Source: Callorhinchus milii (taxonomy: Eukaryota). Taken from it: a stretch of 64,000 nt of DNA. Made by a program: the position numbers and the translations under genes. The stretch spans positions 93,436,001 to 93,500,000 of the forward strand of contig NW_024704742.1 of NCBI RefSeq assembly GCF_018977255.1. Direction: 5' to 3'. Under the pieces are notes generated by a model. That model ran no database searches. It worked only from the letters and a program-made list of their open reading frames with translations, and was not told the origin of the DNA. Positions 3,401-53,760 of the stretch are shown piece by piece; position 1 is the first letter of the stretch; each line of letters opens with the position of its first letter.

Positions 3401-3439
3401 AGCAGCACTTCACTTGTGGCAGCAGCGGCTCTGCAGCCT

Positions 3440-4392: not shown

Positions 4393-4460
4393 AATTCAGA
4401 CTGAGGAGTCAGTAATGTGAAACCTTCACCTTCGGGACCAGGGTCTTTTTAAAAAAAGCA

Positions 4461-4709
4461 GTGCCCCCCCTGCCCCCTGCCCCCCCCCCCTGCCCCCCTG
4501 CCCCCCTGCCCCCCCCGCCCCCCTGCCCCCCTGCCCCCTGCCCCCCGCCCCCCGCCCCCCCGCCCCCCCCCTGTGCTGCTGTTGCTGCCGCTTTTAACCT
4601 GTATTTAAAAACGAGACGCAGCGGCACCGAGAGCAGCAACAACAGCGGCGGCGGCGGCGCAGAGGGGAAAGTTCCTGCAGAGTTGTTTCGCTTTTGCCTG
4701 AGCTGCGGA
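4461..4709 (+). promoter_or_regulatory. C-rich tract, TATA-like TATTTAAAA (4602-4610) and GC-rich 5' UTR of coding exon 1
   Basis: (CCCCTG/CCCCG)n tract at 4461-4571, CpG-rich leader with GGC repeats before the ATG. Confidence 0.5.
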
Positions 4710-4755
4710 ATGGCGGATACCAGCGATCTCCTTAATGCAGCGGAGTTGGTGAAAG
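4710..4755 (+). CDS. CDC14B: CDC14B coding exon 1 ([15 protein letters not shown], phase 1)
   Basis: GGAATGG start context. Donor G|GTGAAG. Joins exon 2 in frame as GAT (D). Resembles short CDC14 N-termini ending in K-DRL. Confidence 0.85.
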
Positions 4756-28700: not shown

Positions 28701-31700
28701 CGTTCAGTCCTTGAACATATTCAAGACTGAGATAGATAGATTTCTTATTGCAAAAGGGATTAAGGGATATGGGGATAAGGCAGAGTTATGTTATTAGTTG
28801 GAGTTAGATTAGAAGATCAGCCACGATTGAATGGCGGGGCAGGCTCGAAGGGCTGAATGGCCTACTCCTGCTCCTACATGTTATGTTATGTGCACTGCAA
28901 ATCAAGCGCCTTCTTTGTTAACTCCTGGAAATTAAGTTGAGTCCTTTTGATTCATTCAACCAGGTTACCCCCTGCACGCCCCAGAGGCCTACTTTCAATA
29001 CTTCCGAAAGCACACTATCACCACGATTATTCGCTTAAACAAGAAAATGTACGATGCCAAACGGTTCACAGACGCTCGCTTTGAGCACTACGATCTCTTC
29101 TTTGTGGATGGAAGCACGCCCAATGATGCCATCGTGAAAAAGTTCTTGAACATCAGTGAAAATGCGGAAGGAGTCATTGCCATACACTGTAAAGGTATTC
29201 TCTTCAGGTGTATGTGGAAGAGTTGAAAAAACCCGCAAATGGCGTTAGCATTGGTTGTGATGGGACACCATAGGTTGCTTTTCATCAGGGTTTCCCATAT
29301 ACACCATGCGGACAACTCACAAGACCATGGCCCTGGCGTCAATGTGACATGCAGGAGTTTGCGTGCAAACACGTATCTTTCGTGGCACCAACTTTCAAAT
29401 AAATAAATAAATCCTTACATTTGATAATGGAGGCCTTTCATGTCAGGAGGACGTCTCAAAGCACTTCACAGGATTTACAGTAAATTGTGGCAACTGTATA
29501 TTTTGTAGATGAACAAGGCAGCCAATTTGTGGACAGCAGTGTATTGCAAACTGCTGTGAGGCTGTGAAAATATTTTGGTTTAGAAGGAAAATGACTTCGT
29601 TCTTTTTGCAATGTTACAGCCGGTCTTGGCCGAACGGGCACTTTAATAGCCTGTTATATCATGAAGCACTACAAGCTGACAGCAGCAGAGGCCATTGCCT
29701 GGATCAGAATCTGTAGGCCAGGGTCTGTAATAGGACCTCAACAGCACTTTTTGGAAGAGTGAGTATTATAATTTTCCTACTTTCCAGATGCGAAAATATT
29801 TATTTAAAAAAACCTGCTTTAAATACACTTACTCAAGTGTACTTGTGGCTTTCTAATTGTACAATCATGGCCTTTAATGCATGTGCTCAATTTTCCAACC
29901 TCTACTTCCAACAGCAGTGTTATTTATGCGCTTACATTTTATTGTTGTGTTGAGCAGGAAACAAGCTAGTATGTGGGCACAAGGCGATCTTTTCCGTGCC
30001 AAGCTAAAGGAACAGCAGAATGGAAAGGACAAGGTTGGGGTTACAAGGATTCTGTCAGGGGTTGATGATATTTCCATTAATGATAATAAGACAAATGACA
30101 AACCAGAAAATCACATGGTAAGCGATCACTTGATATCCTTAATTCATCCAAAATCATATCATCCAATACTCAGATGTTGCTAATCTGGTTCAATTTCATT
30201 ACATAGAGTACTGCTCTGCGATTAACACCCGACAACAGCCTCCTACACTATTTACGCTGCACCATCGAGCTTGTAGGAAGCTAGAGGTCTCTCATTGTGC
30301 CTTGCAAAATGTGATTGAAATTGTTATAGATAAGTTTATTGGTTTTGTCAAATAATCTGAGCACAGATGCACATTTTGAATGTTTTTTCCGTAAAATGGT
30401 CTATTATTGTTATTTATGATTATTATTAATATTTTAATATATTATTTAATCATAATTAAATGCTGTGTGCAATTGGCAGCCACGTCTCACCCACAAATAT
30501 ACAGTCAATATACTTTAGAGTATATTCTGTGAAGCGCTTTGAGACGTCTAGAAGATGTGAAGAGCGCTATATCAAATACAAGGATTATTATAAGAAGAAT
30601 AACATTCATGCATTTGATATAGCATCTTTCACATCGGGAAGACTTCTCAAAGTACTTCAGATGATTTGCTGTGAAATGCAGTGACCGTATTTTGTAGGCA
30701 AACACAGCACATATTTTGCACATGGCACTGCCCCACAAATAGCTAAGCAGTGAATGACAGCTTTTATTTGGAGGATTGTTGGCCAGGGCCCCGAGAGAAA
30801 TTCACTTCTCATTCACAATACCTCAACACAAAGATGGCACCGTTGACATTGCACTCCACCCCCAGCAATGCATTGGAGTGTTAGCTGAGATTATCTGAGT
30901 TTATAGACTAGACTGACATTCCAGTGCATTGCTGGGATAGTTCTGTATTGAGGTGTCATTCCTTGGATGAGAAGTTAAACTGAAGTCTCTTCAGATGGAT
31001 GTTAAAGATCCTGTGGCTCTTTTTGAAAAGAGACAGTAGTTTGTGGCTGCTTCAGACTTGTATGTATATTTGGTGTGATCCTCTGTAGGTGATCCAGTAT
31101 ATTTCACAGTATGTCTGTATGTTCTAATCAGTTTCTTTTCTTCACCCTCAGTATAATGATGATCACTATCCTAATAAAAACGAGATGACCCAAGGAGATA
31201 AACTTCGAGCCTTGAAGAGCAAAAGACAAGCTAGAGCCGCGACTACCGGTTCAATTAAGTGAGTAACGCTGCGAAACCTTAACAAAAACTATACTTTTTT
31301 TAAAAAAAGCTGTATGTTATTTGTGGTGAACGTTTGTTCTTTTAAACACACAAAATGGAAATGCTGAGGAGCTGAACACATTTTCCACTTTATTCACCGT
31401 CGAGCCAGGGCACGTTAAGGACAGTCACCTGTAAAGACAGCTTTCTCTGCGCTCCCCTTCCAATACAACAACAACAACAACTTGCATTTATATAGTACCC
31501 TTCACGCAGGGTTTGGTCCCGGAGCGCTTGACATTGGCGGAGTCTGACAATGAGGGAGCGGGGGTGACTGTAAGCATGATCAAAAAGGAAGGTCTTTAGA
31601 TGGGATTTGAAGGTGGGGAGGGAGGGGCAAAGTGGAGGGATTGAGGGAGATAGTTCCAGAGTTGCAGAGCATAGTGGCTGAAGGCATGGCCACCAAACAG

Positions 31701-34700
31701 GAAGCCAGAGCCAGCCTAGCGGAGGCAGCGGAAGTATATTTGGATTTCATCCGCATTCATGTGGAATGTAACCCCATGTTTGTGGATGACATCGCCAAGA
31801 GGGAGCATGGAGATGAGGAAAAGAAGTGGGACCTGGAATGGAGCCCCGGGGGAGGGCGGATGGAGAAATGATTTGCCGAGATGTATTGTTGGCGGTTTGT
31901 TAAGTAGGATTCAACCCATGCGAGTGCATTCCCACTAAGGTGGATGAGGGAGGAGAGGCAGTGGAGCAAGATGGCGAGATTGACTGTGTCGAATATGGCG
32001 AAGAGATCCACGAAGATGAGGAGGCAGATGGAGCCCTGGTCACAGATAGAGGGAATGTCGTTTGTGACTTTGACAAGTGCTGTCTCTGTGCTGTGGGTTG
32101 GGTGAAAACCAGACTGGAGGGGTTTGAGTGGAGGGAGGGGTGTGAGCAAAGTTAATTTGCAACGAGGCGTTCCAAGACTTTGGCCAGGAAGGCCAGGCTC
32201 CAGTCTGATTGTGGATCAGGCCCAGAGCAGGGAAATAAATAATTTCAGTCTCCATTATGCTACCTGCACTGAGTTTCCTCTTCCCCTTCCTCACTGAGAT
32301 GACAAATTGCGCTAACCACAGCTGACATTGCTGCATTAACCACAGAACTTGCACAACGCCATTTCTGTGAAAGGAAATATGAAATGTTAATGATAATCTT
32401 CAGGTATTTTCTTTGTCTTCGATGCTGTCGATAAGTAGGAACCAAAGCCCCCGCCCCCCTCGCTTGTGTGTTAATATAGCAATACATAATACATACTAGA
32501 ACTGATTGCGTTGGGTTTTGAGTGACTGTTTTGGGATTAGTTAGTCCTCGGATTCCCAGAGTGGCTTGCTGTGTCACAGTGGCATTGGATAAGCTTGAGT
32601 AAGCACTGAAGGTCTGACATGAATTTATTCTAACAGTTGCAAGAACCATTTGGATAACATGAAATATGCAAGTCCCAGACACCTCAGGTGTAATTTGTTG
32701 TTTTTTTTCTTGATTGAATGGTTTCTGTGAGGGAGAAGCTAAAGTGATCTCCCTCGCAACTGTCCTGCTGGCTATAGTTTCATGAGCACTGAGTGTACTC
32801 AGCCGTGCTTTTTATTTGTGAGTTCTTGATGGTAAGCGTTAGTATGTTTGACCATGGTAGTTTGCTGTGGGTAACATAGTGGAGCCTGATCCTATCCTCA
32901 CCCAGCATCTACAAACACACTTCTCCAAGCAGCATGACCAGAGCAGGTTCCCCACATCCCCAAGATTTGATTTGCTGCCCAAGCTAAGATCCGTACAGAC
33001 CTGCTGTCACAGACCAGGGATTAAGCATGGGCCTGTGTGACTTTTGTTGCTGGCTAAAAAANTAAACCTCACCCAGCAATCGGCTGAGCAGCGCTGTTGT
33101 TTTGAATCGGGATTCCAAAATGGCCATGGGGATAGAAAAAGTGGATGTCGGGAAAACGGCAGTGCAAAGCTTTCCTTAGGATGTCAAGTCAAGCCTCCTG
33201 CAGTGAACTCCACATACTGAGCTCTGAGACCTGAGCTTTGACCTGACATCTCCTCCGGGCTGAGGTTTGCCAGTAGACGTTGGGCAATGACAAAAAAGTA
33301 AAATGGACATGGCCAGAATTATTTTTCAAACTCAGCTCTTGAGATTCATTTACAATTAATCCCTTTCTCTAAGCATCAGTACGAGTTGCCATTCTTGCTT
33401 AAAATATGTGGTGTTTTTCCCTTATCGCGCGCCACATCCTTCCCCTATCACGCACCATATCGGCCCCCTTCCTCCTCTCAGTGAGATGCTTGAGTACATT
33501 AACAGGAGAAATAGGCGTATTTAATGGTGCAGCATTCAACCAAAATAGCACTTTACATTTTATTTGAGTGGGTGAACAGGTGGAGAAAAGATTTATAGCT
33601 TGATTTGCAATAAATGCTTTGGACGCCATACAGAATTGAACCGAAGTTTGGAGACGCTGCTGGCCAGCAAACAATGTGGTTGCTAAGGTGTGGTTCAACT
33701 ATGGGAATAAACAACCTTAATCTGCAGACTGTGTGTGTGTGTGTGTTTCAAAAGTATCCAATTATTCTGAAGATTTTGGCACTGGAATTTCTAGTTATGG
33801 TGATGTCAGTGTGTGACTTCCAAGTTCTTTCTGCTCTTTCCAAGTTCCAGCTATTCAAAGTGCTCTTTATCTGTTCTCCCCCGCGGTGACGTTGCTGCCT
33901 TTAAGAAGGCAGCCAGTAGACCATTGAGAGGCAGGACTGGTGCAGTGACCAGTGAGGCTCAGCAGTTGATCAACAGTGGCTGCTGTCATGAAGCTTGGAG
34001 TGAAATCAGGTGTTTGTTTTTGTCTTGCTCACCATTTCCATCCCAGCTGAAAACATACTTTCTGTCTGTTTGTTCATGTCTTGTGGTCTTGGTTCTGTGA
34101 ATCCCAACAAACATACACAGAGGTACTCTTATCTTTTCACTTGGTCCTTTCCTGCACCTTCTCTCTGAGCGAGAACTTCTCCATAGTTAATGTTTCTATG
34201 ATTATAGTCTCTGCATTAATAACACTGCGAGGATTTGCTCCATACGGGGGCTGCTCCATACGGCATTCCCATTGAAGCCCTTGCGGAGTACATTCTCATT
34301 GATGATGGGGGATTCTAGATTCTGAGGAAACTTGTTTTAAATGAATAATACTCTATATTGATAGTTCATAATCCTACCAGACACATTTTATAAATATGTG
34401 TGTGTAATATATATAATGTATATATAATATATATGGAAGTTTAGTTTACATTTTTAAAATGAAATGCTCTAGGCTTAAGCAGATGAGGAAAATCAGTGCT
34501 AAGGAATGACATTTTTAAGTTTAGTCTAAGAAGAGTACTTTCCTGCTGTTCCATAATAACTGACTGGTAAAGTTTGAGTGCACCCATTAGTTTAGTGTCA
34601 TTTGGAGATTGAATAGAGACTGTTATTTTTCAATTCTTGGTTAATTTCAAGACTATCAGAACTTTTTCTTGTTTTAAATTAAATTTCTATGAGTGAGATA

Positions 34701-37700: not shown

Positions 37701-40700
37701 CAGGCAGGTGGCACCTCGGTTTACCATCTCATCCAAAGGATGACACTTCTGACAATGCAAACCCCTTCGCCCACCCCCCCAGCACTGCACTGTAGTGTCC
37801 GCTTAGCACTTGGAGTATGTGGGCTCACGTCCTGACATGGGGCTTCAACCCACAATCTTCTGACTCAGAAGTGAGAGTGCTACCATTGAACCATGCTGAC
37901 ACATATACATGACACATTTCTTTTATTGCTGAGAAATTTAATTAAGTCTGTTACTAAACCAGATTAGGAAGTAGACTCTCTCTGGCTATGTTGCTCCCTC
38001 TGGAGGTTGGGATTACTGAGTTTGCTCAGTGAACTCTTGGTCAACATGTAGAAGGTTCTCCTTGAGGACTGAGACTATTGTCTGGAGCAGCTTATGTGCT
38101 TTTGCTTTGCTCTTTAGGAATCCAGAACCTTTAAAATTAGAGCTAAGCTGTTGAAAGGGGGTTCACAAAAATGTTCTTGATAAGAGGTTTGTAAGAATAT
38201 GGAATGGATTGCTTCAGATGTGCCAGAGATATAGAGTTCATTGACTATTTCAAGATGTAGATAAATAGTTTGTAAGTAGGGGTATTAGATGTGGAGAAAA
38301 GATGGGAAGATTGAATTAAAGGAATTAATAGTGGAGCTTCACAGGCTAAATGGCCTATTTTGTTCCAGTATTTCTATTTATGAAGTTTGGGTAAATGCGC
38401 AAGAACACTATCTTAAGTATGGCCTTGTTAATTTCTTCAAATTAAGTCAAAACTTTTTATTTCAAAGCCCTCCATGACTTTGCTCCTTCCTTCCTCTGTG
38501 ACCCACTAACTCGATACCGACCTGCCACTCCCTCCATTCAGCGGGCTCTGGCCTGCTCCATGTCCCCCATTCTACCCATCTTAAAACCCTCATCCTCCAA
38601 CCCCTACCCTCCCCGCCTCCACCCCTCATGATCCCAACCCCCTGCTCGGGTCTAAATCCTTGACTGTTCAGCACCTTGGGATGTGAAAGGTGCTATACAA
38701 ATGTAATTTGTTGTTGGTGTTGTTATTTGACCTGGTGTAGTTTTGAGTTGTATATTTCCACCCTCTCACTGTTGCTTGGGATATTGGTGCTATTCCCTCA
38801 AGCTAAGCTCTCATATACTGCAGAGTGGAGGAAGGTCACCTGTACTAAACAATGTGCAGCATTTAGCCCCTCACATTTCCTCCTGTGGAATGATGGATAA
38901 TCCTCTTTGTATGTGGAGATTGAAATTAAAGGAATGAACACAAATATACAAAAGGTAATCTAAGATTTTGTACTGTGCTATAGATATGAATGAGTCTTTA
39001 GATGTTTGCATGGCACCTTGCTTGCATTGTTGTTCCAAAAAATAGCTTTGCAGGAGTTACTTTGCCAATGTGCATTTTAGCTCAAATGTTCTGCTCTTCC
39101 ATTTGCATTTTTTTGTTCATCTTTTTTCCTCTTCTAGATGGCTCCTAGCTATGCTGGTCTCTACACTGTGTAGCATTGTCATCTGGTGGATGGTTTGTGC
39201 CTACCCTTCTCCCATCCTGCTAATCTGTCTAGATGGGTTAGGAAACTAGTAACCTTCAGGACCCGGGCAGGTAGCGCTGTAAGTGTGCCACTTCCATTTC
39301 TTTTTCAAACACTACTCACTCGGCTGTGCATTGCACTTTCCAAATCTCTGTCAGTGCATGCTTTACTAATAACTTCTACTGGCTATTTCTTAAAATCAAA
39401 AGGGAGGGGTACACCACAAATGATTTTCTTTAATTTGTGATGCTTTTAAAGACCTATTGTTTATTGTATAATCAGTGTTTAAAATGGCTTTTTAATCAAG
39501 CTTCTCTCACGGAAAATAACTTTTTTCATGATGGGGATTGAGTGAAGATGCAACTAACATTAAAATTTTGCATTGAATTTCGGAATGTGCATGTTTTTTT
39601 CTGTTTCCATTCCCCATCCTAACCTGGTCATCCTGCATCCCACAAACTGTGTAGATATACAATGCTTTTACATTTAATGTTACCCATCGCTGCTTTTTTC
39701 CGTCATAACGGTTGTTCCCTTGTAACTTGGGCTTTTTTCGTTAAATTGTGCTTAGCTGCATGACAAAGCTGGGGAGGGGGTAGTAATTCCACATGACTTC
39801 AGATCCAGCATTGATTTTTTTTAATGTAACAAATGCAACTCGATCAATTGGCTGCTGAAACACAGACAGGTCTCAGCGTAAAGTTAAGCATGAGGCCAGC
39901 TAAAGCTTTTAAAAATAGCTTTGGAACTGAGTGTTAGCATGCATGACTGTTTCTAAGCCTGTTACTTAATAACTTGTGCTGGGCAGACCCAATTCACAGA
40001 GCGCACTTCTTGTTTGTCTGTAATACTCCTATTCTTTTTTAGGTATCTGTGTTTGGATGTGGCACCCTTACTGAGTACACCATATGTATCCGGATTTGAT
40101 TTTAAATGAAGCCGGTTGTTTGTGTGTTTCTGTTTTGCTGCTGATTTTATGAGGGTTGTTCGTGTTTCTGTTTGTGAGGAAGCAGTGGTATTTGGGGAAA
40201 GTGAATGTAAATTAGGTTAAAGTTAGGAGGCATAAGCCATGTGATTGAAGATTGTGTGGGCAAAACCGAGAAAGGAAGCATATGCCATAATAACATGAAA
40301 TTACTTTCTGTGTTTCTTACCCTACAGTGTTCTGACCTGGATGGCCATTGCAGTATACAGATATATACCCTACCTTAATCATTTAAAAATATATACAGCA
40401 ATGTCTTGGTTTCTTAATCAAACCCACTTCTGGTTAGCAACTCCCACTTGCATCCCAGTGTAAAATGCCTCCTTCCTCACGGATGGCATATTGCTTCCCC
40501 AAATGTTTATTGGAACTGGTTTCAAATGTAGCCCAGAGAGCTGGGAGGAAATTCTCTTCTGTCTGTTGACTGTGAGGGACCCGTGTGAAATTCCCCCTGG
40601 CTGTCTCAACCCAGTTCTAATTCGAACATGGGCTCGCAGCATAAAACTGCTCTAAAATTGGTAATATTTAACTTGGGAGCCCTTGTTTTTGCTGGTGTGG

Positions 40701-43700: not shown

Positions 43701-46700
43701 CTGGCCTTGTGGATTTTTAACCATCATTTGTTAAAATCTATTTTGTTTTCTCTCTTTAACTGCCACCGTCAAATCCCAAACTTAGTCACACTCTTGTCTC
43801 TCGATTTTTATCTTTCAACCAAATATTTGCTGAGATTAGCCCTTGGTTTCTTTATGTAACAGAAATTCCTCCGAGCCAGAACCTGTGAGACAACTTTCTT
43901 TTGGAACTTACAAATGCGCAGAATTATGGGAAAATCTGAAATTCAGAAGCCAGCGTTTATCACGTTGCTTTACTTCACCCCTTTTCAGACTTTTATCAAT
44001 TCTAAAATTAGAGGTTTGATTTCTCATTGTATCAAGCTGCACATTCTCTGATCAGAAATGTACTTGCCTAATAAGTGCTAAAGTGTTGCCCACTAAATCT
44101 CGCATTATTTGTTGTAGGTTGGAAGAAAACAAAATACACACTAGATCATCATCCCAGGCGGTTAGGTAGGTGTCTGCCCTTTTGTCATGGAGCATTATTG
44201 TTTATAATAGTGAACAGTACATGATTTATTGTGTTGCAAAGTATCCTTTTGAGTCAAGCTGACGCTATTAAACAGTGGATTGGCTTCAGATGTTAGGTCC
44301 CAGGGTTAAAGCCTGGGACCTAGGTTGTGTATTTGAGGACCTATGAGTCCTTGGACTTGTATCCCAGTAATGCACTCCGTGAAAATGCACAAGATGGTAG
44401 GAAGCCATTTGGCCGTTTTTTTGTGTGACAATCAACTCCTGGAAGGGCAATCTCACAATTGATTTACATTGTAAGTTGCATAAAGATTTTACTTGATACA
44501 GTAATTGCCTCCATGAACTAAAGCAATTCAAAAATACCACATGAGTTGTGTCCATTAAACATGATCTTTGTGTTGGGTAATCAATTTAATTTTTGATTCT
44601 TTTTAGACTGGAATAGCATAAAATCTGATTATTTGTTAATGTAAAGCTTCTCAGTCTGTGATCATTTTAAATGTGAGTTTTTCTGTTTTATGCTCCTTTT
44701 CAACTGCAAATCAATGTACTTAAACCCCAGTAGGATAATCCTGGAGTCCAGTGCACAGAGCGCCAAGACCTCTCTTAAGCCATCTGCTGTTCCTGGCGTG
44801 GGTCTGACAGGCAGTACCAAGAGGACAACAAGGTCCATGGCAGCCAACAGTAGTTTAAGGAGGTAAGTTGCAATCACAAATTATACCCCTCCATTGTTTA
44901 AAAGGCAGCCTGATCTATTCCAGCCTTTAACATTGACTGGCTGGGATAGCCGTCATTGTGAACTTTTTAGACAATCAAATACTTTCCTTTTTTACAAAAA
45001 AACCCTCAAATGGCTATTCTTCATCATTTTGACTCTAATGATTGAAGACTTGAAAAGCAGTCTCCTCCTCCCCCTCAGGTTTTCTTGGTTAATCTGGAAA
45101 GACTGGGCGAGTATGGGAAGAGTAAACCAGAACTTACTGAATTCTATGAAAGAAATGGTTGACCCCATGCAGTGTTAAACTTAATAAGCTGGCTCTAGTC
45201 TTGCACACTGAATGGAATAAGCTACACTGTTACAAAGGCCTGAAATTCCACTGAGTATTAGCCTGGAATTAAAATTGTCTTAAAATTTAAGGTTCTGCAG
45301 AATTGTGGAAGTTTCTTTGTAAGAAGATTGTAAGATAACATTTTTATTAAAAGAACTTCTGAATTTCAGATTTTCGCACAATTCTGCACATTTGTAAGTT
45401 CGAAAAGAAAATGTTCTCACAGGTTCTGGCTGGGAGGAATTTCTGGCCTCTGATCTGATAAATTGGGTTTTAAAAATGTCATTATTTGCAACGAGATTGT
45501 TAAATATTGAGTCCTGCTGGTAACCAAATATGCATCATACACTAACTCCACTCCAATGTACACGTAAGTAGTTTACAGAGCAGAGTTCTACTATCTCAAT
45601 TCACAGAGGAGAGGCCAGGGTGATGTATATCCGGTTACCGGCAAGATTCAGCATTTACAAAATCTTTTGCAATTCATATTGGTGAATACCTCCTTTTAAA
45701 CCCCACTGAGAACATTTTAGAAACCTGATGGGAACAAAGGCTACAATGCTGCAGTTGCTGCTGATCAGCATCAAATTCCTGCTAAATTTTATGCAGCTGA
45801 ACAAGCTTATCCTATTTTCAATAAGAGGGTGTTCATTAATTGATGTCTACTGTAATGCAAGGCTTTGATATGTATCTGAAACTATATGAAACATTGCTTC
45901 CTACAGATTGCTTGAAACAACCTACTCTGATCAAAATCTATAGCAAATGCATGTTATGTAGATTTATATATTTAAGAATGTTAATTCATTTTATGGGACC
46001 TTGTTTGAAATCCTTACTCTGCTAGATCAGAACGAGAAGTCTGCATTTACAGGCAGGAGTAGAGATGTACTTATACTTAATTGCTTGGTTGCAAAAGCAC
46101 AACAGCTAGCAGCTTAATTGGCAATTTCCCAAATTGTACAACCGAAGACCTTTGCAAAAACTGAGACTGTAAATCCAGTGTTGTGGATTGTGGAGTAATG
46201 TTCTCATAGCATCCTTATTAAAAACTTACATGGGGGTGGAAAATGACGATCGGAGCATTTTATCCTTTACATTTTAGTGCAACAAAGTGTGTGCTTTTTG
46301 CACTTTTGTTTTTTTTAAAAAAAAACTGCACTGGAGTATGTGAATTCTAAACTGAATAGTGTGTACACATTCAGTATGGAGTTGTCAGAATATTAGGGTT
46401 CTGGGAGGAAAGGTAACAAATCTCTAACCTCTTATGATATTTTTATATAACATACTTCTGGATTAGAATGCAAATATCTTGACAATCCAATAATAGAACT
46501 ATACTAATTTGAGTATTTTCCTCTCCCCTGCCCCGAAAAAAAATCTTACCTTTCCTTCTCTTCAGAAGTCAGTCAAATATGCCTCGCCCGAGTGGCTGTT
46601 TGTCATGTGTGAGTCTAGATGGTGGTGATGTTTAATGTTGGGGTGTATCACAGCCAAAGTGAATCCATATATCACTTGATGTTCACCCCACACATTTTCC

Positions 46701-49700
46701 ATCAGGAACAAACACCATGAGGGAGTGGTGGAGAAGAGAGTGGAGCTCGATTTGCCCTCTTAATGTAAAATGGGTGTCGATATTTAGTATAGCCAGGAAG
46801 GTGTGAGCAAAGCCGTTAGATATAACGGGTCTGCAGGAACCAGTTTGAATGAAAATGAGTAAGAATTGGGAAAAGTTGATGGTAGATGGCAGCTATGTGA
46901 CCGATCATTGGACTTATCTGTTATAACATTATGCCTTTGCAACGGATATTTGGTACAGTAAAGATGTCAGCAGTTCCGAGTATGTTACTATGCACTGTGA
47001 TTTTTTTNCTGGACTGCCATTAGATGAGACCTTATACCATTAGTTATCTTCATTTCAGTGTGTGTGCGTGCCTTTAACATTCCTTTATATACTGGGCAGT
47101 CCTGAGGCACGCAAGTATACAGCATTTACTTGGTGCCTGCAGTCAGAAATGTGAAAAGCATTCAAGTGTATCCATTTCGGAAAAGCAAAGGGCAGTCAAG
47201 GCCAACAGAGGTTATTCTATGAGGCTTGACAGATATTGACGAAGAATACCAAAGTCTACTTACATAAAACTATCATTTGAGGAAAGGAATAGATTTACTT
47301 GGAATTCAATTGTCCACTCTCTGAGCGAATCATGGCATTTTCTTCAAATTAGTATCTATTAATCTGGATGGCTTCTTTCTCCCAGCCCCTACACTTCCCG
47401 CATCTTTTCCCAAATTTTCCACTACTATCTTATCTATAAGCTGTACCCGTCATCAGTAGCAGGGAAAACTATTGCTTGATTTCACTTGCGGGTGTGTGTG
47501 TATGTGTATATATATATATATATATGATGTGTATATATAATAAAAGATACTCTAAGCTTTTACAACTACTTTTCAAAAAGAAGCAAAGAAAGGGTAAAAT
47601 ACAAATGAAACATGAAAAAGGCTGATTATATTTGTTAATTCTCATTTGGTTTTGATGGGTTGAAGGATGAGAGTAGCTGCTGAGAGTGGCATTAGCCAAG
47701 ATTGGATAAGCATCCGATAAAAGTCCATGTCTACAGCAGAGGTGGCAGAAAGTTGATACGATCGTAATGAACCTTTAAGGCATAAATGGGCCATATTCCA
47801 GTAGGTTGTGTGTTTTTTCTGCAATTTGGACTGCAGTCTATTCCCTTGAACACATCAGCTAAATAGAAGTGTAAACTGGGCATTTCTTTTCACTGAGATT
47901 TTTGTGAAACTAATGGTTGAATAGGAGATAAAATATATATAATTCTTGCATTTGATGCATAGATGCGTCCTTCCAGGGAGAGAGCGGCATTCCATTCCCA
48001 CAATCTATCTCTAGACTTCCCATGTGCATGCAAATCTCAGCTTGGTTTGGATACTCTTAAGCACGATGATGGGTTTCTGCATATGTCAAACTCCTTGGTG
48101 ACCCCAAAAAGGGAATAGGTGACAATGGGGACTAAACTGCGGGATTCCTTAATAAGGACTTTTGAATCGTGCAAACGGGAAGCCCTTAAATAATGGATGG
48201 TCCGTCACAATAGAGAGGTTCCTCATCAAGGAAGCTACTTAGAAATCCTGCATTTTACACCCAAATAAATAATGCACTTTTATCATTTTACTGATCTGTC
48301 CTTTTAAATACCTGCAGTTATGATGCTAACACGTGTGAAGTTTTTCACAAAAAGTTAATGGAATTGAGGGAAGCTAATGTGGCAGTAATGTATAAAACAC
48401 AGAAAGGTGTATTTATTTTGTTGAGGTGAAAGCTGACCTGTCTTACGATTGTTTTTCCCTTTGACATACAGCCACCCCCTAAACCCTAGGCTAGCCAGTT
48501 CACTGGGCAACTTGCATGCATTGACTAGTGACAAGGACGCAGCCCAGACGAGTGATGCAAACTCAGGTGCTAGAGCCCAGAGTTATTCTGTCACCCAGCT
48601 GAATAACTCAAACGTTATAAACAACAACAGCCACTCCTCCTCACGAAGAAGGGCTGCAGATAACGGCACCAGCGTCAGTCCGTATGCAGTACGGAATTTA
48701 AGCCACTCTCATCCAGTAAGTGCCAACCTCTCATCTCGATCCGTATCCCACTTTGAATCAATTCAGAACCACATTTGAGTTTGGAAATTGCTTTAAATGG
48801 TAAATGGTGTGCCTCTAATGGTAACTTTGGGAGGGGGGAGGGGGACACAATTAATCTACTACTTGACTGGATTTAAATGAAGGATTTACACAATTCATTA
48901 TGGTATAATGCACAACCACAATGTCCTCGCTGATCAATGCTAAATAAATGCTTTTAATTTCTGAAGAGTGGATATCGCCTGCTAAGTCGGTGTGAGTGTC
49001 CTGCCTGCATCTAATACCAATATCTCATGTTTTGCAAATGCTGCACCTCCTTGCTGAAAATAGAGCCATAGACATTTACAACACCGAGGAAAACCATTTG
49101 GTTCTTTTAAGAGCAATATTTTCAGCCCTTTCCTGGGAGGCATGTAGGAATGCCTCCGAATTTCTAAGAAACAACTTCTGTGCAAATATGTGTGTCGAAT
49201 TAATGTTTCTCTTTCTTCTAATCTGAGGCACACCTGCTGTTGCTTCACACCAAAGGAATACAGCTGGTGTGATTTCACCAACTCAACCTGTACATTTTTA
49301 CTTAGTCAGCTGCTGCTGCTGTTAGCACTACACAATAGCACCTCAATGTAATGGAGTCATTTACAGTTATGAGGTCGGCCCTGAAAATGTTACCTCTGAT
49401 CACGAGCTTAGTTTGGTTCAATCTCTGTTCTGTCTGGCCAAGCTTGTATAGGGCAAAGTCAATAATTCCATTAAAGCCTCTGCTGTCATTGCGATGCTCT
49501 TATTTATCCTAGCCTAAAATATCTTTCATGTTGTAGTAGCAGAAGCTTGTACATCAGCTGACCTACTTGGCAGAAAATCCTACATTTCATTCACGAGGAT
49601 ACAAACTACTGGAAGTGCCTATGCTGTCTCTTGTTTTATTTTCCAACGGTTTGCTTTCAGCTTCAACCTCTGATTAACCAGAAATGCTTTTGTTGTCTCT

Positions 49701-51704
49701 TTCCATTTCTCCGCTCTTTCACACAGTTTGATTCCTGAGAGAGGGAGAAAAACCCGGAGCACTTTATATGAAACGCGCTTAGGGCGAATATGGTACTTTT
49801 ACTGTTCTGCTTTTTCATTTTCCCTGTGTTTTTTTTATATTTTAAAAATATAAATGTTAGCTAGCAGCACAAACACATTACTACCGATTCCAATCCTGAA
49901 GATGTTGTGGTATAGTGTTGTCCTACAGCAACTAAGTATTCAATTTAATTTCTATATTAAGATTTTAGAGTGCCATAGAATGTAGGTGATGCATTACTAA
50001 ATGGAAACAGTGTATAAGGGGGTCATAGTAAGTAGTAGCAGCAAAGGAACAGGAGGAGGATATTGAACCCATCATGCCAGATCTTTTTATCGCATAGTTT
50101 GCCCCCAAAATACACACTGTCACACCTGCCTATATTCTCCTGAGAAGTATTTTCTAATCTCTCTCACTTTAGCCTCTTCTAATTTGAAGACTATGTCCCC
50201 TTGTTTTGGATCCCTTTGCCAATGTGAAGAGTCACTCGACAAACAGATTTTTTTTATAAACACTTTTTTTCCTCCTGAAAGCACTGATTTGCACTTGTAC
50301 TGCACCCAAATGATCGTACTTAACGTTTCAGCAGAGCCAACTGAATGTCAGAAAGGAGAAAGGAAATCCGAATTAGTCAATCCTCAGCCCTCACTGCTCA
50401 ACTTCACTATTAATGATGGTTTGGGATAGGACATCATCTGACTCATTCAACGGAATAGATATCACATAGATCGCAAATGTAGCCTCACTCCCTTTCTGTA
50501 GGCTTTTTCCAGACACTTTAGGAAATGCAGAAAAACCTCCTCTCTGAATTTCCTACTGTTGCTACTTTCTATTTTCAAATCAACTTCCTTTGGAGCATAC
50601 AAGGCCAATTTCATAAATCACTCACTGGGCTAATTTGCAAATATTAAACCTAATACTTAAAAAGACACGAAAAACTTATCTGTAGCCGGTGGCACTTTGA
50701 GTATCAGTGTTGTTTGCCTGCATTGAATCCTGTGTAGTTTTACCCCCCCATGCATGTTATCAGTTTGAACAGTGGTTGTTGACATGAGGTTTATATTTTT
50801 TGCTGAAACCTGAAGCAAATTAAATCGTAAAGCTGCATGACTAAGTTTATCTATTGGGGTCTGTGCTTGTCCACCTAATGAGCAGATTTAGCAAATTGCT
50901 GTGATTTTGAGCTAATTGCTTTTTTGGGACAGCATCCCATATTTTCATAATTGAATTTCTGGTCATTCCTGTCTTGCTAATGTGCTTCAGCCAGTGTACT
51001 GTTAACTGTGTAATACATTGGGAATCAGAGCCAGCAACCCTCATTTTGTTTTAAGTTTGAAGATGACAAATCTCTCCCTGGCCAACTGTCTCCTCACCCC
51101 AAGCAGAGTTCAGCTAATTGAGCACAAAGTGGGGGATTGAACTTGGGCCTTTCTTGGCTTGCATGACTTCATGCTACTTTATTTGGTATGTGTGTATGTA
51201 TTTGTGGTTTTATGCATACACTCACGCAGCAGAACCATGTTGTAAAGTGCTTCAGTATAACATAGGTTCGCCAATAGGTTGTGGTGTGAACCCTGTCTTT
51301 ATTTATCCATAAAAATCCACACTAGACGTTCACCCTTTTGGCTTCCCCCAAGCACTGGCTCATGTTTTGTCTTTCTGCCTGCTTTTGCAGTGAATGTGGA
51401 AGTGCTGATTGGCCATTGATTGTATGTAGCCTTGATATTTGAAGGAGAGACATTTTCTGTTAAATTCTAGATTTTGTGCAACTTGCACACCTAAAAAAAA
51501 ATTGGCGCTTTTTTTAAGATGTTAATTTTTTGTTGGTGGTTCTGCTTCTTGTGTAATGGCCTATGTACTTTTGCATGACAGTTTTTTTTAATTCTGTTGC
51601 ACCTTTTACTAAAATATGTAATTTTGGCAGATTTGCTTAATTTTTGTTTCTGATTTTATTCAAGTCACTCCACACTCCACACTAGAGTACCATTACTCCG
51701 CTAA
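4710..51704 (+). CDS. CDC14B: Dual-specificity protein phosphatase CDC14B, whole coding span. 12 core exons plus alternative 3' exons; predicted isoforms of about 425-573 aa.
   Basis: Manually spliced GT-AG exons with consistent phases translate to [28 protein letters not shown]...[14 protein letters not shown]...[21 protein letters not shown]...[12 protein letters not shown] rather than A is supported by tail-to-tail adjacency to HABP4 (as in human), the [20 protein letters not shown] exon and the hydrophobic tail exon. Confidence 0.9.
4760..5330. repeat. G-rich minisatellite (about 17-19 bp, GGGGGTCCCGGGGAG) in CDC14B intron 1
   Basis: About 30 visible units, starting immediately after the exon 1 donor. 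Confidence 0.95.
5734..5824 (+). CDS. CDC14B: CDC14B exon 2 ([31 protein letters not shown])
   Basis: tttcag acceptor, AA|GTGAGT donor, 91 nt, conserved CDC14 A-domain motif. Confidence 0.97.
6321..6396 (+). CDS. CDC14B: CDC14B exon 3 ([25 protein letters not shown])
   Basis: ttctag acceptor, AAG|GTAAAT donor, hallmark [10 protein letters not shown]. Confidence 0.97.
9720..9965 (+). mobile_element. L2 3' UTR fragment
   Basis: PTLWNSIP motif and GCGCTTTGGGACGTCCTCCCAACGTGAAAGGCGC tail. Confidence 0.8.
10995..11392 (+). mobile_element. L2 LINE 3' fragment
   Basis: Closely similar to 2348-2730 (CACAGATTTCCCATCACACAGAGGATACAG...) with an L2 tail. Confidence 0.85.
12466..12588 (-). mobile_element. 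Penelope-like element terminal fragment with a hammerhead-like core
   Basis: The + strand reads CTGCAGATGCTGGAAATCTG...CAGGTCAGGCAGCATCT...AACGTTTCGGGTC..CCCTTCGTCAG, a repeat type recalled as common in sharks. Confidence 0.65.
12872..12964 (+). CDS. CDC14B: CDC14B exon 4 ([31 protein letters not shown])
   Basis: ttacag acceptor, TCG|GTAAGT donor, 93 nt in frame. Confidence 0.96.
13025..13398 (-). mobile_element. tRNA-SINE, longer-body subfamily
   Basis: Same head and tail as 24799, plus an internal segment shared with the copies at 25530, 56030 and 58875. Confidence 0.88.
13903..14365 (-). mobile_element. L2 LINE 3' fragment
   Basis: [50 protein letters not shown] plus tail. Confidence 0.88.
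14372..14638 (-). mobile_element. 5'-truncated tRNA-SINE next to the L2 fragment
   Basis: Matches the 24799 family. Confidence 0.85.
21137..21213 (+). CDS. CDC14B: CDC14B exon 5 ([26 protein letters not shown])
   Basis: ctcaag acceptor, AG|GTAATT donor, 77 nt. Confidence 0.96.
22262..22560 (+). mobile_element. tRNA-SINE fragment with a duplicated 3' tail
   Basis: Two successive ...AAATGCAAGGATTATTATT tails. Confidence 0.85.
24799..25113 (+). mobile_element. Full-length tRNA-derived SINE with L2-type 3' tail
   Basis: A box TAGCTCAGTGG (24808), B box GTTCAATTCC (24852), 3' stem-loop shared with L2, (ATT)n end. Confidence 0.92.
25530..25932 (-). mobile_element. tRNA-SINE, longer-body subfamily
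   Basis: Head ...ACCACTGAGCTACAGACTCC and tail AATAATCCTTGCATTTG on the + strand. Confidence 0.85.
26756..26822 (+). CDS. CDC14B: CDC14B exon 6 ([22 protein letters not shown])
   Basis: ttccag acceptor, AAG|GTAAGA donor, 67 nt. Confidence 0.96.
26993..27055 (+). CDS. CDC14B: CDC14B exon 7 ([21 protein letters not shown])
   Basis: tcccag acceptor, GAG|GTTAGT donor, 63 nt, acidic EYEHYE linker. Confidence 0.96.
27187..27274 (+). CDS. CDC14B: CDC14B exon 8 ([30 protein letters not shown])
   Basis: ttgcag acceptor, G|GTAGGT donor, 88 nt. Confidence 0.96.
27858..28890 (+). mobile_element. 5'-truncated CR1 LINE with stop codons, in CDC14B intron 8
   Basis: [43 protein letters not shown]. Tail GGCCTACTCCTGCTCCTA..ATGTTATGTTATG. 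Confidence 0.92.
28964..29194 (+). CDS. CDC14B: CDC14B exon 9 ([16 protein letters not shown]...[12 protein letters not shown]...VIAIHCK)
   Basis: aaccag acceptor, AAG|GTATTC donor, 231 nt. Contains the general-acid Asp loop (DGSTP) and the catalytic HC. Confidence 0.97.
29620..29758 (+). CDS. CDC14B: CDC14B exon 10 ([47 protein letters not shown])
   Basis: ttacag acceptor, GA|GTGAGT donor, 139 nt. Completes the CX5R P-loop. Confidence 0.97.
29958..30117 (+). CDS. CDC14B: CDC14B exon 11 ([17 protein letters not shown]...[26 protein letters not shown]), includes an NES-like segment
   Basis: gagcag acceptor, ATG|GTAAGC donor, 160 nt. Confidence 0.95.
31152..31258 (+). CDS. CDC14B: CDC14B exon 12 ([35 protein letters not shown])
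   Basis: cctcag acceptor, AA|GTGAGT donor (phase 2), conserved TQGDxLRALKS. Confidence 0.95.
31466..32200 (-). mobile_element. Internally deleted L2 LINE fragment
   Basis: [26 protein letters not shown] on the - strand, with an L2-type tail near 31470. Confidence 0.85.
37445..37902 (-). mobile_element. Older tRNA-Deu SINE (DeuSINE-like) with L2 tail; related fragments at about 7875-8120, 16640-16985, 20380-20690, 23375-23610 and 53890-54145
   Basis: The - strand has a tRNA-like head, then a Deu-domain-like GGATGAGATGGTAAACCGAGG..CAGGTGGATGTTAAAGATTCC, then the L2 tail. Confidence 0.7.
38460..38725 (+). mobile_element. L2 3' fragment
   Basis: TTCAAAGCCCTCCATG... to GTGAAAGGTGCTATACAAATGTAATTTGTTG. 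Confidence 0.75.
39138..39249 (+). CDS. CDC14B: CDC14B alternative terminal exon encoding a hydrophobic tail ([37 protein letters not shown])
   Basis: Strong polypyrimidine acceptor cttttttcctcttctag. In frame with the phase-2 exon 12 donor. Resembles the recalled mammalian Cdc14b tail (...LAVLTSALCSVxIWWIVC...LLFCLDG). Confidence 0.8.
41110..41232. repeat. 123-bp near-perfect palindrome (61-bp arms, 3 mismatches, 1-nt centre)
   Basis: TACACAGGCATTGCCTAAGAATG...CATTCTTAGGCAATGCCTGTGTA, read directly. Confidence 0.95.
42186..42530 (-). mobile_element. L2 3' fragment
   Basis: Reverse complement of the L2 3' end seen at 2400-2730. Confidence 0.8.
44118..44165 (+). CDS. CDC14B: CDC14B exon 13, 48 nt ([17 protein letters not shown])
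   Basis: ttgtag acceptor, AG|GTAGGT donor, phase 2-2. Similar to the recalled CDC14A segment SDDTKGHPRAVSQPFR. Confidence 0.8.
44734..44862 (+). CDS. CDC14B: CDC14B exon 14 ([43 protein letters not shown]); alternative acceptor at 44731
   Basis: CAGTAG tandem acceptor, AG|GTAAGT donor, phase 2-2. Similar to the recalled human CDC14B VILQSSVQSCKTS...TKRTTRS. Confidence 0.88.
45236..45449. mobile_element. MITE-like element with terminal inverted repeats AGGCC(T/A)GAAATTCC
   Basis: AGGCCTGAAATTCC at 45236 and GGAATTTCTGGCCT ending at 45449. A partial inverted copy lies at 43860-43949. Confidence 0.65.
48472..48778 (+). CDS. CDC14B: CDC14A-like exon 15 ([22 protein letters not shown]...NLSHSHP). 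Internal donor at 48715, or read-through [20 protein letters not shown].
   Basis: atacag acceptor in frame after exon 14. RLASSLGNL motif as in CDC14A. CCA|GTAAGT donor at 48715/48716. AATAAA at 48943-48948. Confidence 0.82.
48943..48948 (+). terminator. Candidate polyadenylation signal for the exon-15 read-through isoform
   Basis: AATAAA about 165 nt after the TGA at 48776-48778. Confidence 0.4.
51665..51704 (+). CDS. CDC14B: CDC14B last exon, coding part: (S)[12 protein letters not shown] from a phase-2 donor, or SLHTPH* (stop at 51685) from a phase-0 donor
   Basis: ttttattcaag acceptor. Ends in LR* like the recalled human CDC14B SLSISRTKTVLR*. Followed by about 2 kb of AT-rich UTR-like sequence with few recognisable repeats. 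Confidence 0.72.
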
Positions 51705-53754: not shown

Positions 53755-53760
53755 AATAAA
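53755..53760 (+). terminator. Candidate CDC14B distal polyadenylation signal (AATAAA)
   Basis: AATAAA at the end of the AT-rich UTR-like region, with T/GT-rich sequence downstream and SINE remnants resuming near 53890. Confidence 0.55.

What the first reader, a model, noticed from the sequence alone, without database searches (positions are those of the whole stretch)
31152..51704. CDC14B carries a mosaic A/B set of C-terminal exons, possibly the ancestral pre-duplication layout
Seen: after phase-2 exon 12, five in-phase exons with canonical splice sites can give at least five C-termini. These are the TM tail (449 aa), ex13-14-last (484 aa), ex13-14-15-last (559 aa), ex15 read-through (573 aa) and direct ex12-last (425 aa). 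Recalled: human CDC14B has the [13 protein letters not shown] exon and ends in ..TVLR, whereas the 48-nt exon and the RLASSLGNL exon are CDC14A features; C-terminal splicing is known to alter CDC14B localisation. Inference: this HABP4-linked gene retains modules that mammals split between the two ohnologs, so one locus could produce A-like, B-like and membrane-anchored phosphatases.
Basis: partly seen in the sequence, partly recalled or inferred. Interest (0 to 1): 0.8.

Follow-up and report, generated by a model that had tools for sequence, protein, structure and literature searches.

The report
Elephant-shark CDC14B alternative tail exons
The alternative end-pieces of this elephant-shark cell-cycle phosphatase gene are real, but they are the ordinary ancestral tail of the CDC14 family, already annotated in public databases and shared with most fishes, rather than a special A/B mosaic.

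Summary
The window is the Callorhinchus milii CDC14B locus. Trees and a convergent HABP4-family neighbour place the gene on the CDC14B side.

The "mosaic" reading fails. The shark's own CDC14A has the same four-exon tail, with matching phases. Exons 13, 14 and 15 also occur in CDC14B of other cartilaginous fishes, ray-finned fishes and coelacanth, and exon 15 also in lungfish and salamanders. Exon 13 was seen in 0 of 176 lungfish and tetrapod CDC14B records. Exon 15 was seen in 0 of 146 frog, caecilian and sauropsid records.

The hydrophobic tail exon is 74-79% identical to the C-terminus of bird and turtle CDC14B isoforms, and is also present in the cloned Xenopus CDC14beta.

No mammalian CDC14B sequence was obtained and RNA junctions could not be tested. 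Low novelty.

The parts
31152..31258 (+). CDC14B exon 12 (107 nt). It ends in phase 2 and is the common donor for the alternative tails.
   Evidence: 100% tblastn match to public isoforms, AG acceptor, GTGAGT donor.
39138..39249 (+). Alternative terminal exon encoding a 36-residue hydrophobic tail ([37 protein letters not shown]).
   Evidence: The tail is 74-79% identical over 34 aa to the C-termini of bird and turtle CDC14B isoforms, 76% to an axolotl isoform, and 59-65% to frog isoforms including Xenopus CDC14beta. In the rows tabulated the 34-residue match ends 2 residues before the C-terminus, so the stop lies in the same place. The best 19-residue Kyte-Doolittle mean is 2.28, and a poly(A)-signal-like hexamer lies at 39559. 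The exon is not in the 15 listed Callorhinchus records.
44118..44165 (+). Exon 13, a 48-nt cassette (K)[15 protein letters not shown], phase 2 to 2.
   Evidence: Present in 11 of 15 listed Callorhinchus records, 8 of 8 other cartilaginous-fish CDC14B rows, 5 of 6 non-teleost ray-finned rows, 30 of 47 teleost rows and 9 of 15 coelacanth rows. The shark's own CDC14A has a 48-nt counterpart.
44731..44862 (+). Exon 14, a 132-nt cassette (S)RIILESS...[15 protein letters not shown], phase 2 to 2. A tandem acceptor at 44731/44734 explains RefSeq isoform X2, which lacks one Ser.
   Evidence: Found in CDC14B rows of every clade examined except lungfish at E<0.01; lungfish rows give weaker matches at E 0.015-0.03.
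48472..48715 (+). Exon 15, 244 nt, (S)[14 protein letters not shown]...RNLSHSHP. It enters in phase 2 and leaves in phase 0, so including it shifts the frame of all downstream exons.
   Evidence: Counterparts occur in CDC14B of sevengill shark, coelacanth, lungfish, salamanders and ray-finned fishes, and in CDC14A (283 nt in the shark's own CDC14A).
49727..49792 (+). After ex14 it reads (S)[21 protein letters not shown](C), as in RefSeq X5. After ex15 it reads FDS*, as in RefSeq X3.
   Evidence: The 22-residue peptide has counterparts (LIPQRERKKRNALQQMRLMKLC-like) in 26 other rows of 352: 3 coelacanth, 5 salamander, 1 caecilian, 2 bird and 15 turtle.
51665..51704 (+). Coding part of the last exon, read in two frames. 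After ex14 or the 66-nt exon it gives (S/C)[12 protein letters not shown]. After ex15 it gives SLHTPH*.
   Evidence: The ...SHS..TR..LLR* end is conserved from sharks to birds. The SLHT end recurs in bowfin and bichir CDC14B and parallels the SLQSEYVQY end of CDC14A.
4710..31258 (+). Upstream part of the gene: the MADTSD first coding exon at 4710-4754 and the catalytic exons.
   Evidence: tblastn pieces (12866-12967, 21137-21214, 26754-26822, 27184-27276, 29619-29759, 31152-31259). Pfam DSPn and DSPc. The MKRKNEKRRG first exon of RefSeq X1-X6 was not found in the window.
58513..58623 (-). Exon of a HABP4/SERBP1-family gene, convergent with CDC14B.
   Evidence: PF04774, 34.1 bits in the genome scan; 36.4 bits against a cut-off of 21.8. 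A second family member lies about 1 Mb from CDC14A on contig C5.

Best explanation
This is the elephant-shark CDC14B gene with the full ancestral gnathostome CDC14 tail.

After exon 12, which ends in phase 2, the pre-mRNA can take one of two routes. It can terminate in an intronic exon that encodes a hydrophobic, tail-anchor-like C-terminus. Or it can run through cassette exons of 48, 132, 244 and 66 nt into a last exon.

The 48-, 132- and 66-nt exons are multiples of three, so any of them can be skipped without changing frame. The 244-nt exon is not. Including it switches the 66-nt exon and the last exon to a second reading frame (FDS* or SLHTPH* instead of ...[12 protein letters not shown]).

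The exon 12-13-14-15 architecture predates the CDC14A/CDC14B duplication, because the shark's own CDC14A has the same slots, sizes modulo three, and phases. CDC14A kept this architecture. On the CDC14B side, annotated isoforms lack exon 13 from lungfish onward and lack exon 15 in frogs, caecilians and sauropsids. That leaves the short ...TVLR-type end and the hydrophobic tail.

Shown here: exon structure, orthology, distribution among annotated isoforms, and paralogous colinearity.

Inferred: that the tails set localisation, by analogy with human CDC14B isoforms and the disordered CDC14A tail; and that absence from annotated isoforms reflects real exon loss.
For: Identity of the locus: the ex15 peptide is 100% identical to Callorhinchus CDC14B records.

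Orthology:
- In a 48-row tree the A|B split has SH-aLRT 100, and the window gene sits inside a cartilaginous-fish CDC14B group at 99.
- In a catalytic-core-only careful tree of 30 rows the split is 100/100.
- The same genome holds a second CDC14 gene on contig C5 that is 91% identical to zebra-shark CDC14A in the best exon, against 78% for the window gene.

Same architecture in the paralogue (peptides):
- Exon sizes are 107/48/132/244 nt in CDC14B and 116/48/126/283 nt in CDC14A.
- Residues modulo three are identical (2, 0, 0, 1), and all sites are AG/GT.

Whole-tail homology: the CDC14B tail aligns colinearly with the zebra-shark CDC14A tail (1-148 against 1-171), E = 3.7e-12 and 47.4 bits. 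300 shuffles gave a mean of 12.9 and a maximum of 21.6 bits. The alignment is shown.

Distribution among 267 CDC14B records:
- Exon 13: 8/8 other cartilaginous fishes, 5/6 non-teleost ray-finned fishes, 30/47 teleosts, 9/15 coelacanth, and 0/176 lungfish plus tetrapods.
- Exon 15: 2/8, 6/6, 16/47, 9/15, then 3/4 lungfish, 17/26 salamanders, and 0/146 frogs, caecilians and sauropsids.
- Hydrophobic tail: 2/15 coelacanth, 1/26 salamanders, 5/50 frogs, 16/35 birds, 5/39 turtles.

Last-exon ends are conserved in both frames.

Literature (passages read):
- Human CDC14B has four 3' splice isoforms with different localisation (PMC2422853).
- In human CDC14A, exons 11-15 encode an alternatively spliced disordered tail that is needed for normal localisation and hearing (PMC12796106).
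Against: - Exon 14 alone shows no A/B sequence homology. A profile built from CDC14B exon 14 scored 8.2 bits on the best real CDC14A protein and 8.4 bits on the best shuffled one (37 real plus 37 shuffled). Its equivalence rests on position, phase and length only.
- By raw score the shark catalytic core is closer to the human CDC14A structure (638 bits) than to the human CDC14B structure (570 bits).
- Neither tree contains a mammalian CDC14B or an outgroup.
- The census counts annotated isoform records, not genomes. The records are not independent: many are isoforms of one gene or close species. They were also sampled with a bias towards long tails (top 120 of two searches, plus up to 15 members from each of eleven clusters looked up, listed). 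Absence from them does not prove that an exon is gone from the DNA.
- No RNA evidence was obtained here for any junction.
- The hydrophobic-tail form is not among the 15 listed Callorhinchus records.
Confidence: 0.85

Rival explanations
1. The ancestral gene had A-type and B-type C-terminal modules. After duplication these were partitioned reciprocally, so that mammalian CDC14A kept the 48-nt and RLASSLGNL exons and CDC14B kept the TKRTTRS exon and the TVLR end. The shark gene is then an unresolved mosaic.
For: - Sauropsid and frog CDC14B records show exon 14 and the TVLR-type end but neither exon 13 nor exon 15.
- CDC14A records show recognisable exon 13 and exon 15 counterparts.
- Exon 14 of CDC14B has no detectable sequence match in CDC14A.
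Against: - CDC14A has an exon in the exon-14 slot with the same phase and a similar length: 126 nt in the shark's own CDC14A. It also has an SL..-type last-exon end parallel to the shark's frame-0 end. So CDC14A lost nothing, and the partition is not reciprocal.
- The layout is not peculiar to the shark. It is found in CDC14B across cartilaginous fishes, ray-finned fishes and coelacanth.
Confidence: 0.08
2. A true mosaic by gene conversion or exon transfer: exons 13 and 15 were copied from CDC14A into CDC14B in the chimaera lineage.
For: Public annotation names the same gene variously as CDC14A-like, CDC14B and CDC14C.
Against: - Shark exon 13 is 81-93% identical to exon 13 of other cartilaginous-fish CDC14B records, but only 50-71% identical over 14 residues to CDC14A.
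- Exon 15 is 61% identical to sevengill-shark CDC14B but about 26-36% to CDC14A.
- The shark's own CDC14A exon peptides (RLDDMKIHTRSPTQPF; SFTINTRLGNSLGNIYAAPEE...) are clearly more distant.
Confidence: 0.02
3. The hydrophobic-tail exon at 39138 is not used in the elephant shark and is only a conserved relic or a chance open frame. The direct ex12-to-last form and the ex15 read-through form would likewise be mere possibilities.
For: None of these three forms is among the 15 of 22 listed Callorhinchus records.
Against: For the tail exon:
- 74-79% amino-acid identity to bird and turtle isoform ends over 34 residues, across the deepest split among jawed vertebrates.
- Intact acceptor and correct phase.
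- The stop lies in the same place: in the rows tabulated the match ends 2 residues before the C-terminus.

For the other two forms there is no evidence against their being unused.
Confidence: 0.12

Closest known systems
Public Callorhinchus milii CDC14B records: RefSeq XP_007898176/7/8/9/80 (isoforms X1-X3, X5, X6), XP_042189251 (X4), UniProt V9KF79 and V9KU58
   Same: They are the same gene. They carry exons 13, 14, 15, the 66-nt exon and both last-exon frames exactly as in the window.
   Different: No listed record carries the hydrophobic tail, the direct ex12-to-last join or the ex15 read-through. Only 15 of 22 members were listed. Sources name the gene inconsistently as CDC14A-like, CDC14B or CDC14C.
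Human CDC14B 3' splice isoforms CDC14B1, B2, B3 and CDC14Bpar (Rosso et al. 2008, PMC2422853)
   Same: One catalytic core with alternative C-termini made by 3' splicing. The C-terminus decides between nuclear and microtubule localisation (passages read).
   Different: The human exon sequences are shown only in a figure that is not held, and no mammalian CDC14B protein was obtained. Exon-by-exon correspondence was therefore not tested.
CDC14A C-terminal disordered region, exons 11-15 of human CDC14A (PMC12796106)
   Same: A paralogous, colinear tail: a 48-nt exon, a Ser-rich exon, an exon containing RL(A/G)xSLGN, and an RYLSRSxP|SLQ... end. It is alternatively spliced and disordered (passages read).
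   Different: The CDC14A tail is longer. Its exon-14 counterpart is not recognisably similar in sequence. tblastn found no hydrophobic-tail exon in the 8-kb tail region of the shark CDC14A locus; the best hit had E 0.31 and contained a stop.
Xenopus laevis CDC14beta (NP_001084486 / Q6QLU4, 452 aa), and bird, turtle, axolotl and coelacanth CDC14B isoforms with the same end
   Same: They end in the same hydrophobic tail (W.LAML.STLC.I..WWIVC....P..L..LD.L plus two residues). This tail is 59-79% identical to the shark exon at 39138.
   Different: In those species the tail is in annotated or cloned proteins. In the shark it is only inferred from the DNA.

Membership tests
CDC14 dual-specificity phosphatase | Tandem DSPn and DSPc domains with the HCX5R catalytic loop. 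| tested here: met
   Pfam DSPn 204 bits and DSPc 53.7 bits, both over their cut-offs. IHCKAGLGRTG is present in all listed isoforms. Solved CDC14A and CDC14B cores match at E of 1e-168 or better.
CDC14B orthogroup (as opposed to CDC14A) | Groups with CDC14B in a tree of the catalytic core. | tested here: met
   A|B split at 100 SH-aLRT (48 rows) and at 100/100 (30 rows, core only). Limits: no outgroup, no mammalian CDC14B, and 16 of 46 picked rows were dropped because an anchor pattern failed.
CDC14B orthogroup (as opposed to CDC14A) | Conserved neighbourhood with HABP4, convergent. | tested here: inconclusive
   A PF04774 exon lies at 58513-58623 on the minus strand. The family also includes SERBP1, a second member lies about 1 Mb from CDC14A, and the exon was not assigned to HABP4 specifically. 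The human arrangement is recalled, not tested.
CDC14B orthogroup (as opposed to CDC14A) | Higher similarity to mammalian CDC14B than to mammalian CDC14A. | tested here: not met
   The human CDC14A core scores 638 bits and the human CDC14B core 570 bits. I read this as faster evolution of mammalian CDC14B. It is a similarity score, not a tree, and it does not overturn the tree.
CDC14B orthogroup (as opposed to CDC14A) | CDC14B-type C-terminal ends: the ...TKRTTRS exon, the ...TR..LR* end and the hydrophobic tail. | tested here: met
   All three are shared with CDC14B records from sharks to birds. Among the 134 proteins then in hand, which included the CDC14A and CDC14AB records, the hydrophobic-tail peptide found no match better than E 16.
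Tail-anchored membrane protein | A single hydrophobic segment within the last ~40 residues, no signal peptide, and post-translational membrane insertion. | tested here: inconclusive
   A hydrophobic stretch is present; the best 19-residue Kyte-Doolittle mean is 2.28. Membrane insertion cannot be tested here. According to PMC2422853, human CDC14Bpar sits on microtubules and only the African-ape retrocopy on the ER. Whether those proteins carry this tail was not verified.

The most novel reading that the evidence does not exclude
The short amniote CDC14B C-terminus (...TRTVLR) is the frame-shifted reading of an ancestrally dual-coding last exon.

In the jawed-vertebrate ancestor the frame was set by including or skipping a 244-nt disordered-tail exon. 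The shark, ray-finned fishes, coelacanth and salamanders still do this.

The tetrapod CDC14B lineage then lost the tail exons stepwise and on one side only. Exon 13 went after the coelacanth split. Exon 15 went in frogs, caecilians and amniotes. CDC14A meanwhile kept the whole tail, which is now needed for hearing.

In addition, the elephant shark makes an as yet unannotated tail-anchored CDC14B isoform from the exon at 39138.
Probability: 0.5. Interest if true: 0.3.

Novelty: already known. Interest (0 to 1): 0.15.

Why it matters
For genome annotation it matters little, because the isoforms are already in RefSeq and UniProt.

It has modest value as a case study. Comparing a basal vertebrate only with human paralogues makes an ancestral, shared exon set look like a mosaic.

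It also gives a clean example of a non-multiple-of-three cassette exon that switches the reading frame of two downstream exons, with both frames conserved.

Finally, it suggests that tetrapod CDC14B shed disordered-tail exons that CDC14A kept. Those CDC14A exons are required for the protein's localisation in hair cells (PMC12796106, passages read). That asymmetry could help explain why the two paralogues differ in localisation and phenotype.

Tried and rejected
- RNA junction test. The look-up of sequencing runs listed 14 runs that hold part of window 44000-53999, but no RNA holder was listed; ten are only guessed to be RNA.
None of the junctions 31258>39138, 31258>44118, 44862>48472, 44862>51665 or 48715>51665 could therefore be tested on reads.
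- The exon 15 peptide against 1.84 billion representative proteins gave one hit, a 935-aa protein matched in six stretches at E 5.8e-4. I take this as low-complexity noise. The search was too insensitive for this disordered exon.
- The exon 15 peptide with the search for homologous proteins set to 'longer' found only the shark's own cluster among 183 candidates. Full-length searches later showed clear counterparts, so that blank meant nothing.
- Pfam on the tail exon peptides found no family.
- A profile of CDC14B exon 14 against CDC14A proteins gave no signal above shuffled controls.
- tblastn of the hydrophobic-tail peptide against 8 kb of the shark CDC14A tail locus gave nothing credible.
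- The MKRKNEKRRG first exon of the RefSeq isoforms was not found in the window.
The recalled human exon assignments remain untested.
- Literature on CDC14A/B tail evolution. The searches (terms CDC14A, CDC14B, CDC14C, transmembrane, elephant shark, coelacanth, ohnolog, genome duplication, alternative splicing, zebrafish, isoforms) returned no paper on it among those listed. No listed paper holds either CDC14 term.
- Earlier-findings look-ups gave nothing relevant.
Full report
**What the window is.** The window is G000:C1:93436001-93500000 of a 0.99-Gb assembly. The encoded protein has Pfam DSPn and DSPc domains and the IHCKAGLGRTG loop.

**Checking the observation.** I read the sequence at every coordinate given.

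| Exon | Coordinates | Length | Note |
|---|---|---|---|
| 12 | 31152-31258 | 107 nt | ends in phase 2 |
| hydrophobic tail | 39138 to stop at 39247-39249 | 112 nt incl. stop | K + 36 residues, then stop |
| 13 | 44118-44165 | 48 nt | |
| 14 | 44731-44862 | 132 nt | |
| 15 | 48472-48715 | 244 nt | |
| last | from 51665 | | two frames used |

- All acceptors are AG and all internal donors are GT.
- The 48- and 132-nt exons preserve phase 2. The 244-nt exon moves the frame by one.
- As a result the last exon reads SLHTPH* after exon 15 and [12 protein letters not shown] after exon 14.
- Two predicted proteins already exist as public records. V9KU58 (485 aa) is ex13-14-last. V9KF79 and XP_042189251 (560 aa) are ex13-14-15-last.
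- Both UniProt records differ from the RefSeq models by one residue (AMMHRY against AMIHRY). That fits an independent sequence source. That they derive from cDNA is my recollection, not a tool result.
- From the MADTSD start the five lengths are 449, 485, 560, 574 and 425 aa.
- The hydrophobic-tail, direct ex12-to-last and read-through forms are not among the 15 of 22 cluster members listed.
After exon 14 it reads [21 protein letters not shown](C), as in RefSeq X5. After exon 15 it reads FDS*, as in RefSeq X3.

**Is it CDC14B?**
- A full-length search returned CDC14A, CDC14AB and CDC14B records from many vertebrates.
- A second search, seeded with coelacanth CDC14B, added amphibian and sauropsid CDC14B.
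- A 48-row tree splits A from B with SH-aLRT 100 and puts the window gene among cartilaginous-fish CDC14B at 99.
- A careful tree on the catalytic core alone gives 100/100. It had 30 rows, because 16 of the 46 I picked were skipped when my trimming anchor failed.
- The same genome has a second CDC14 gene on contig C5, 4.374-4.404 Mb, minus strand. Its best exon is 91% identical to zebra-shark CDC14A, against 78% for the window gene.
- A HABP4/SERBP1-family exon lies convergently downstream at 58513-58623 on the minus strand. Another family member lies about 1 Mb from CDC14A on C5.
- Against this: the shark core scores higher to the solved human CDC14A core (638 bits) than to human CDC14B (570 bits). 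Also, no mammalian CDC14B and no outgroup are in the trees.

**Is the tail a mosaic?** No.

In the shark's own CDC14A locus (L012) the tail exons match the CDC14B exons in number, in size modulo three (2, 0, 0, 1), and in AG/GT sites:

| Slot | CDC14B | CDC14A |
|---|---|---|
| exon 12 | 107 nt | 116 nt |
| exon 13 | 48 nt | 48 nt |
| exon 14 | 132 nt | 126 nt |
| exon 15 | 244 nt | 283 nt |

- The whole CDC14B tail aligns colinearly with the zebra-shark CDC14A tail (1-148 against 1-171) at E = 3.7e-12. The score is 47.4 bits, against a maximum of 21.6 in 300 shuffles.
- The multiple alignment shows shared blocks: [14 protein letters not shown](E/D)(E/D).K.HTRS.SQ, S..(L/I)N.RL..SLGN(L/I), and R.LS.S.P followed by SL.
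- Exon 14 alone is the exception. A profile of CDC14B exon 14 finds nothing in 37 CDC14A proteins above shuffled copies (8.2 against 8.4 bits). Its equivalence to the CDC14A exon rests on position, phase and length only.

**Is it special to the shark?** No. I compared the shark exon peptides with all 352 proteins in hand. Of these, 267 are CDC14B records sorted by clade. The other 85 (CDC14A/AB rows, unnamed rows and the noise hit) were left out.

| Clade (n records) | exon 13 | exon 15 | hydrophobic tail |
|---|---|---|---|
| other cartilaginous fishes (8) | 8 | 2 | 0 |
| non-teleost ray-finned (6) | 5 | 6 | 0 |
| teleosts (47) | 30 | 16 | 0 |
| coelacanth (15) | 9 | 9 | 2 |
| lungfish (4) | 0 | 3 | 0 |
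| salamanders (26) | 0 | 17 | 1 |
| frogs (50) | 0 | 0 | 5 |
| caecilians (2) | 0 | 0 | 0 |
| birds (35) | 0 | 0 | 16 |
| crocodilians (7) | 0 | 0 | 0 |
| turtles (39) | 0 | 0 | 5 |
| squamates (13) | 0 | 0 | 0 |

- Exon 14 occurs in every clade, though lungfish only at E 0.015-0.03.
- These are annotated isoform records, many from one gene or from close species.
- They were sampled from two top-120 lists, which favour long tails, plus up to 15 members from each of eleven clusters looked up.
- The zeros therefore show absence from annotation, not from DNA.

**The hydrophobic tail.**
- The exon at 39138 is 74-79% identical over 34 residues to the C-terminal end of bird and turtle CDC14B isoforms.
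- It is 76% identical to an axolotl isoform, 75% over 24 residues to coelacanth isoforms, and 59-65% to frog isoforms. The frog isoforms include the reference Xenopus laevis record named CDC14beta (NP_001084486/Q6QLU4).
- In the rows tabulated the 34-residue match ends two residues before the C-terminus, so the stop lies in the same place.
- The best 19-residue hydropathy mean is 2.28, and a poly(A)-signal-like hexamer follows at 39559.
- It is therefore a conserved, ordinary CDC14B terminal exon, even though no listed shark record uses it.
- tblastn found no counterpart in the 8-kb tail region of the shark CDC14A locus.

**Other conserved details.**
- The ...SHS..TR..LLR* end is conserved from sharks through teleosts, salamanders, frogs, crocodiles and birds.
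- The alternative frame-0 end (SLHT...) recurs in bowfin and bichir CDC14B and parallels the SLQSEYVQY end of CDC14A. The last exon is therefore dual-coding, and both frames are old.
- The 66-nt exon has counterparts in 26 other records: 3 coelacanth, 5 salamander, 1 caecilian, 2 bird and 15 turtle.

**Function.** This is inferred, not shown.
- Passages of PMC2422853 report four human CDC14B 3' splice isoforms, located in nucleoli, nuclear speckles or on microtubules. They also report that deleting the C-terminus of one isoform sends it to the nucleus.
- Passages of PMC12796106 describe the CDC14A tail as a 278-residue disordered region, encoded by alternatively spliced exons 11-15 and needed for normal localisation and hearing.
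- Passages of PMC10132239 report that human CDC14B exons 13 and 14 of their model are normally skipped and that exon 13 carries a premature stop. I could not test whether those exons correspond to any exon here.

**What could not be done.**
No splice junction was verified on reads.
- No mammalian CDC14B sequence was obtained.

**Verdict.**
The layout is ancestral, but it is not a mosaic, it is not special to this genome, and the modules were not partitioned reciprocally between the paralogues.
- The isoforms are already annotated, so interest is low.

Noticed in passing
window 49727-49792 (+): A 66-nt cassette exon read in two frames. It gives a basic 22-residue insert ([22 protein letters not shown]) after exon 14, and FDS-stop after exon 15. 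In frame 0 the shark exon carries three stops. At the same position coelacanth and axolotl isoforms read on (S/P)(P/D)(G/S)SEGE..K.CFTPNA..EIM. The shark frame-0 reading may therefore be a decayed version of that longer end.
   Followed up: partly
window 44729-44734 (+): A tandem (NAGNAG-type) acceptor at exon 14. Using AG at 44729-44730 or at 44732-44733 adds or drops one Ser, which matches RefSeq isoform X2.
   Followed up: partly
window 58513-58623 (-); G000:C5:3363331-3364933 (+): A HABP4/SERBP1-family exon convergent with CDC14B, and a second family member about 1 Mb from CDC14A on contig C5. This looks like a paired paralogon (CDC14 plus a HABP4-family gene) retained from the vertebrate genome duplications.
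   Followed up: partly
window about 2900-5400 and 62400-64000: GC-rich stretches (GC 0.53-0.65) whose six-frame translations are long tandem repeats: LSLPVSLTPRVSHSPC-like and [14 protein letters not shown] units around the first coding exon, and RDTMSDRDQYPGG-like units at the window's end. These are probably minisatellites in and near a CpG-island promoter.
   Followed up: no
window 1694-2131 (+), and scattered copies with runs of IIIII in translation (e.g. 14249-14464, 17144-17299, 22341-22675, 61379-61531): An open frame with a reverse-transcriptase-like YADDTQLY motif (a LINE fragment), and repeated short elements that share near-identical translated stretches ([15 protein letters not shown]). 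These are probably SINE-like repeats in the introns.
   Followed up: no
public records of this gene: Annotation pipelines name this one gene CDC14A-like, CDC14B and CDC14C in different isoform records, and name cartilaginous-fish orthologues 'CDC14C-like'. The shark core scores higher to human CDC14A than to human CDC14B, which probably drives the misnaming.
   Followed up: partly
window, upstream of 4710: The basic MKRKNEKRRG...KRR first coding exon of RefSeq isoforms X1-X6 was not found anywhere in the 64-kb window. It probably lies upstream of the window start. The MADTSD start is at 4710-4754. The MFCTSFH start found in some UniProt (UniRef) records is at 5682-5732.
   Followed up: partly
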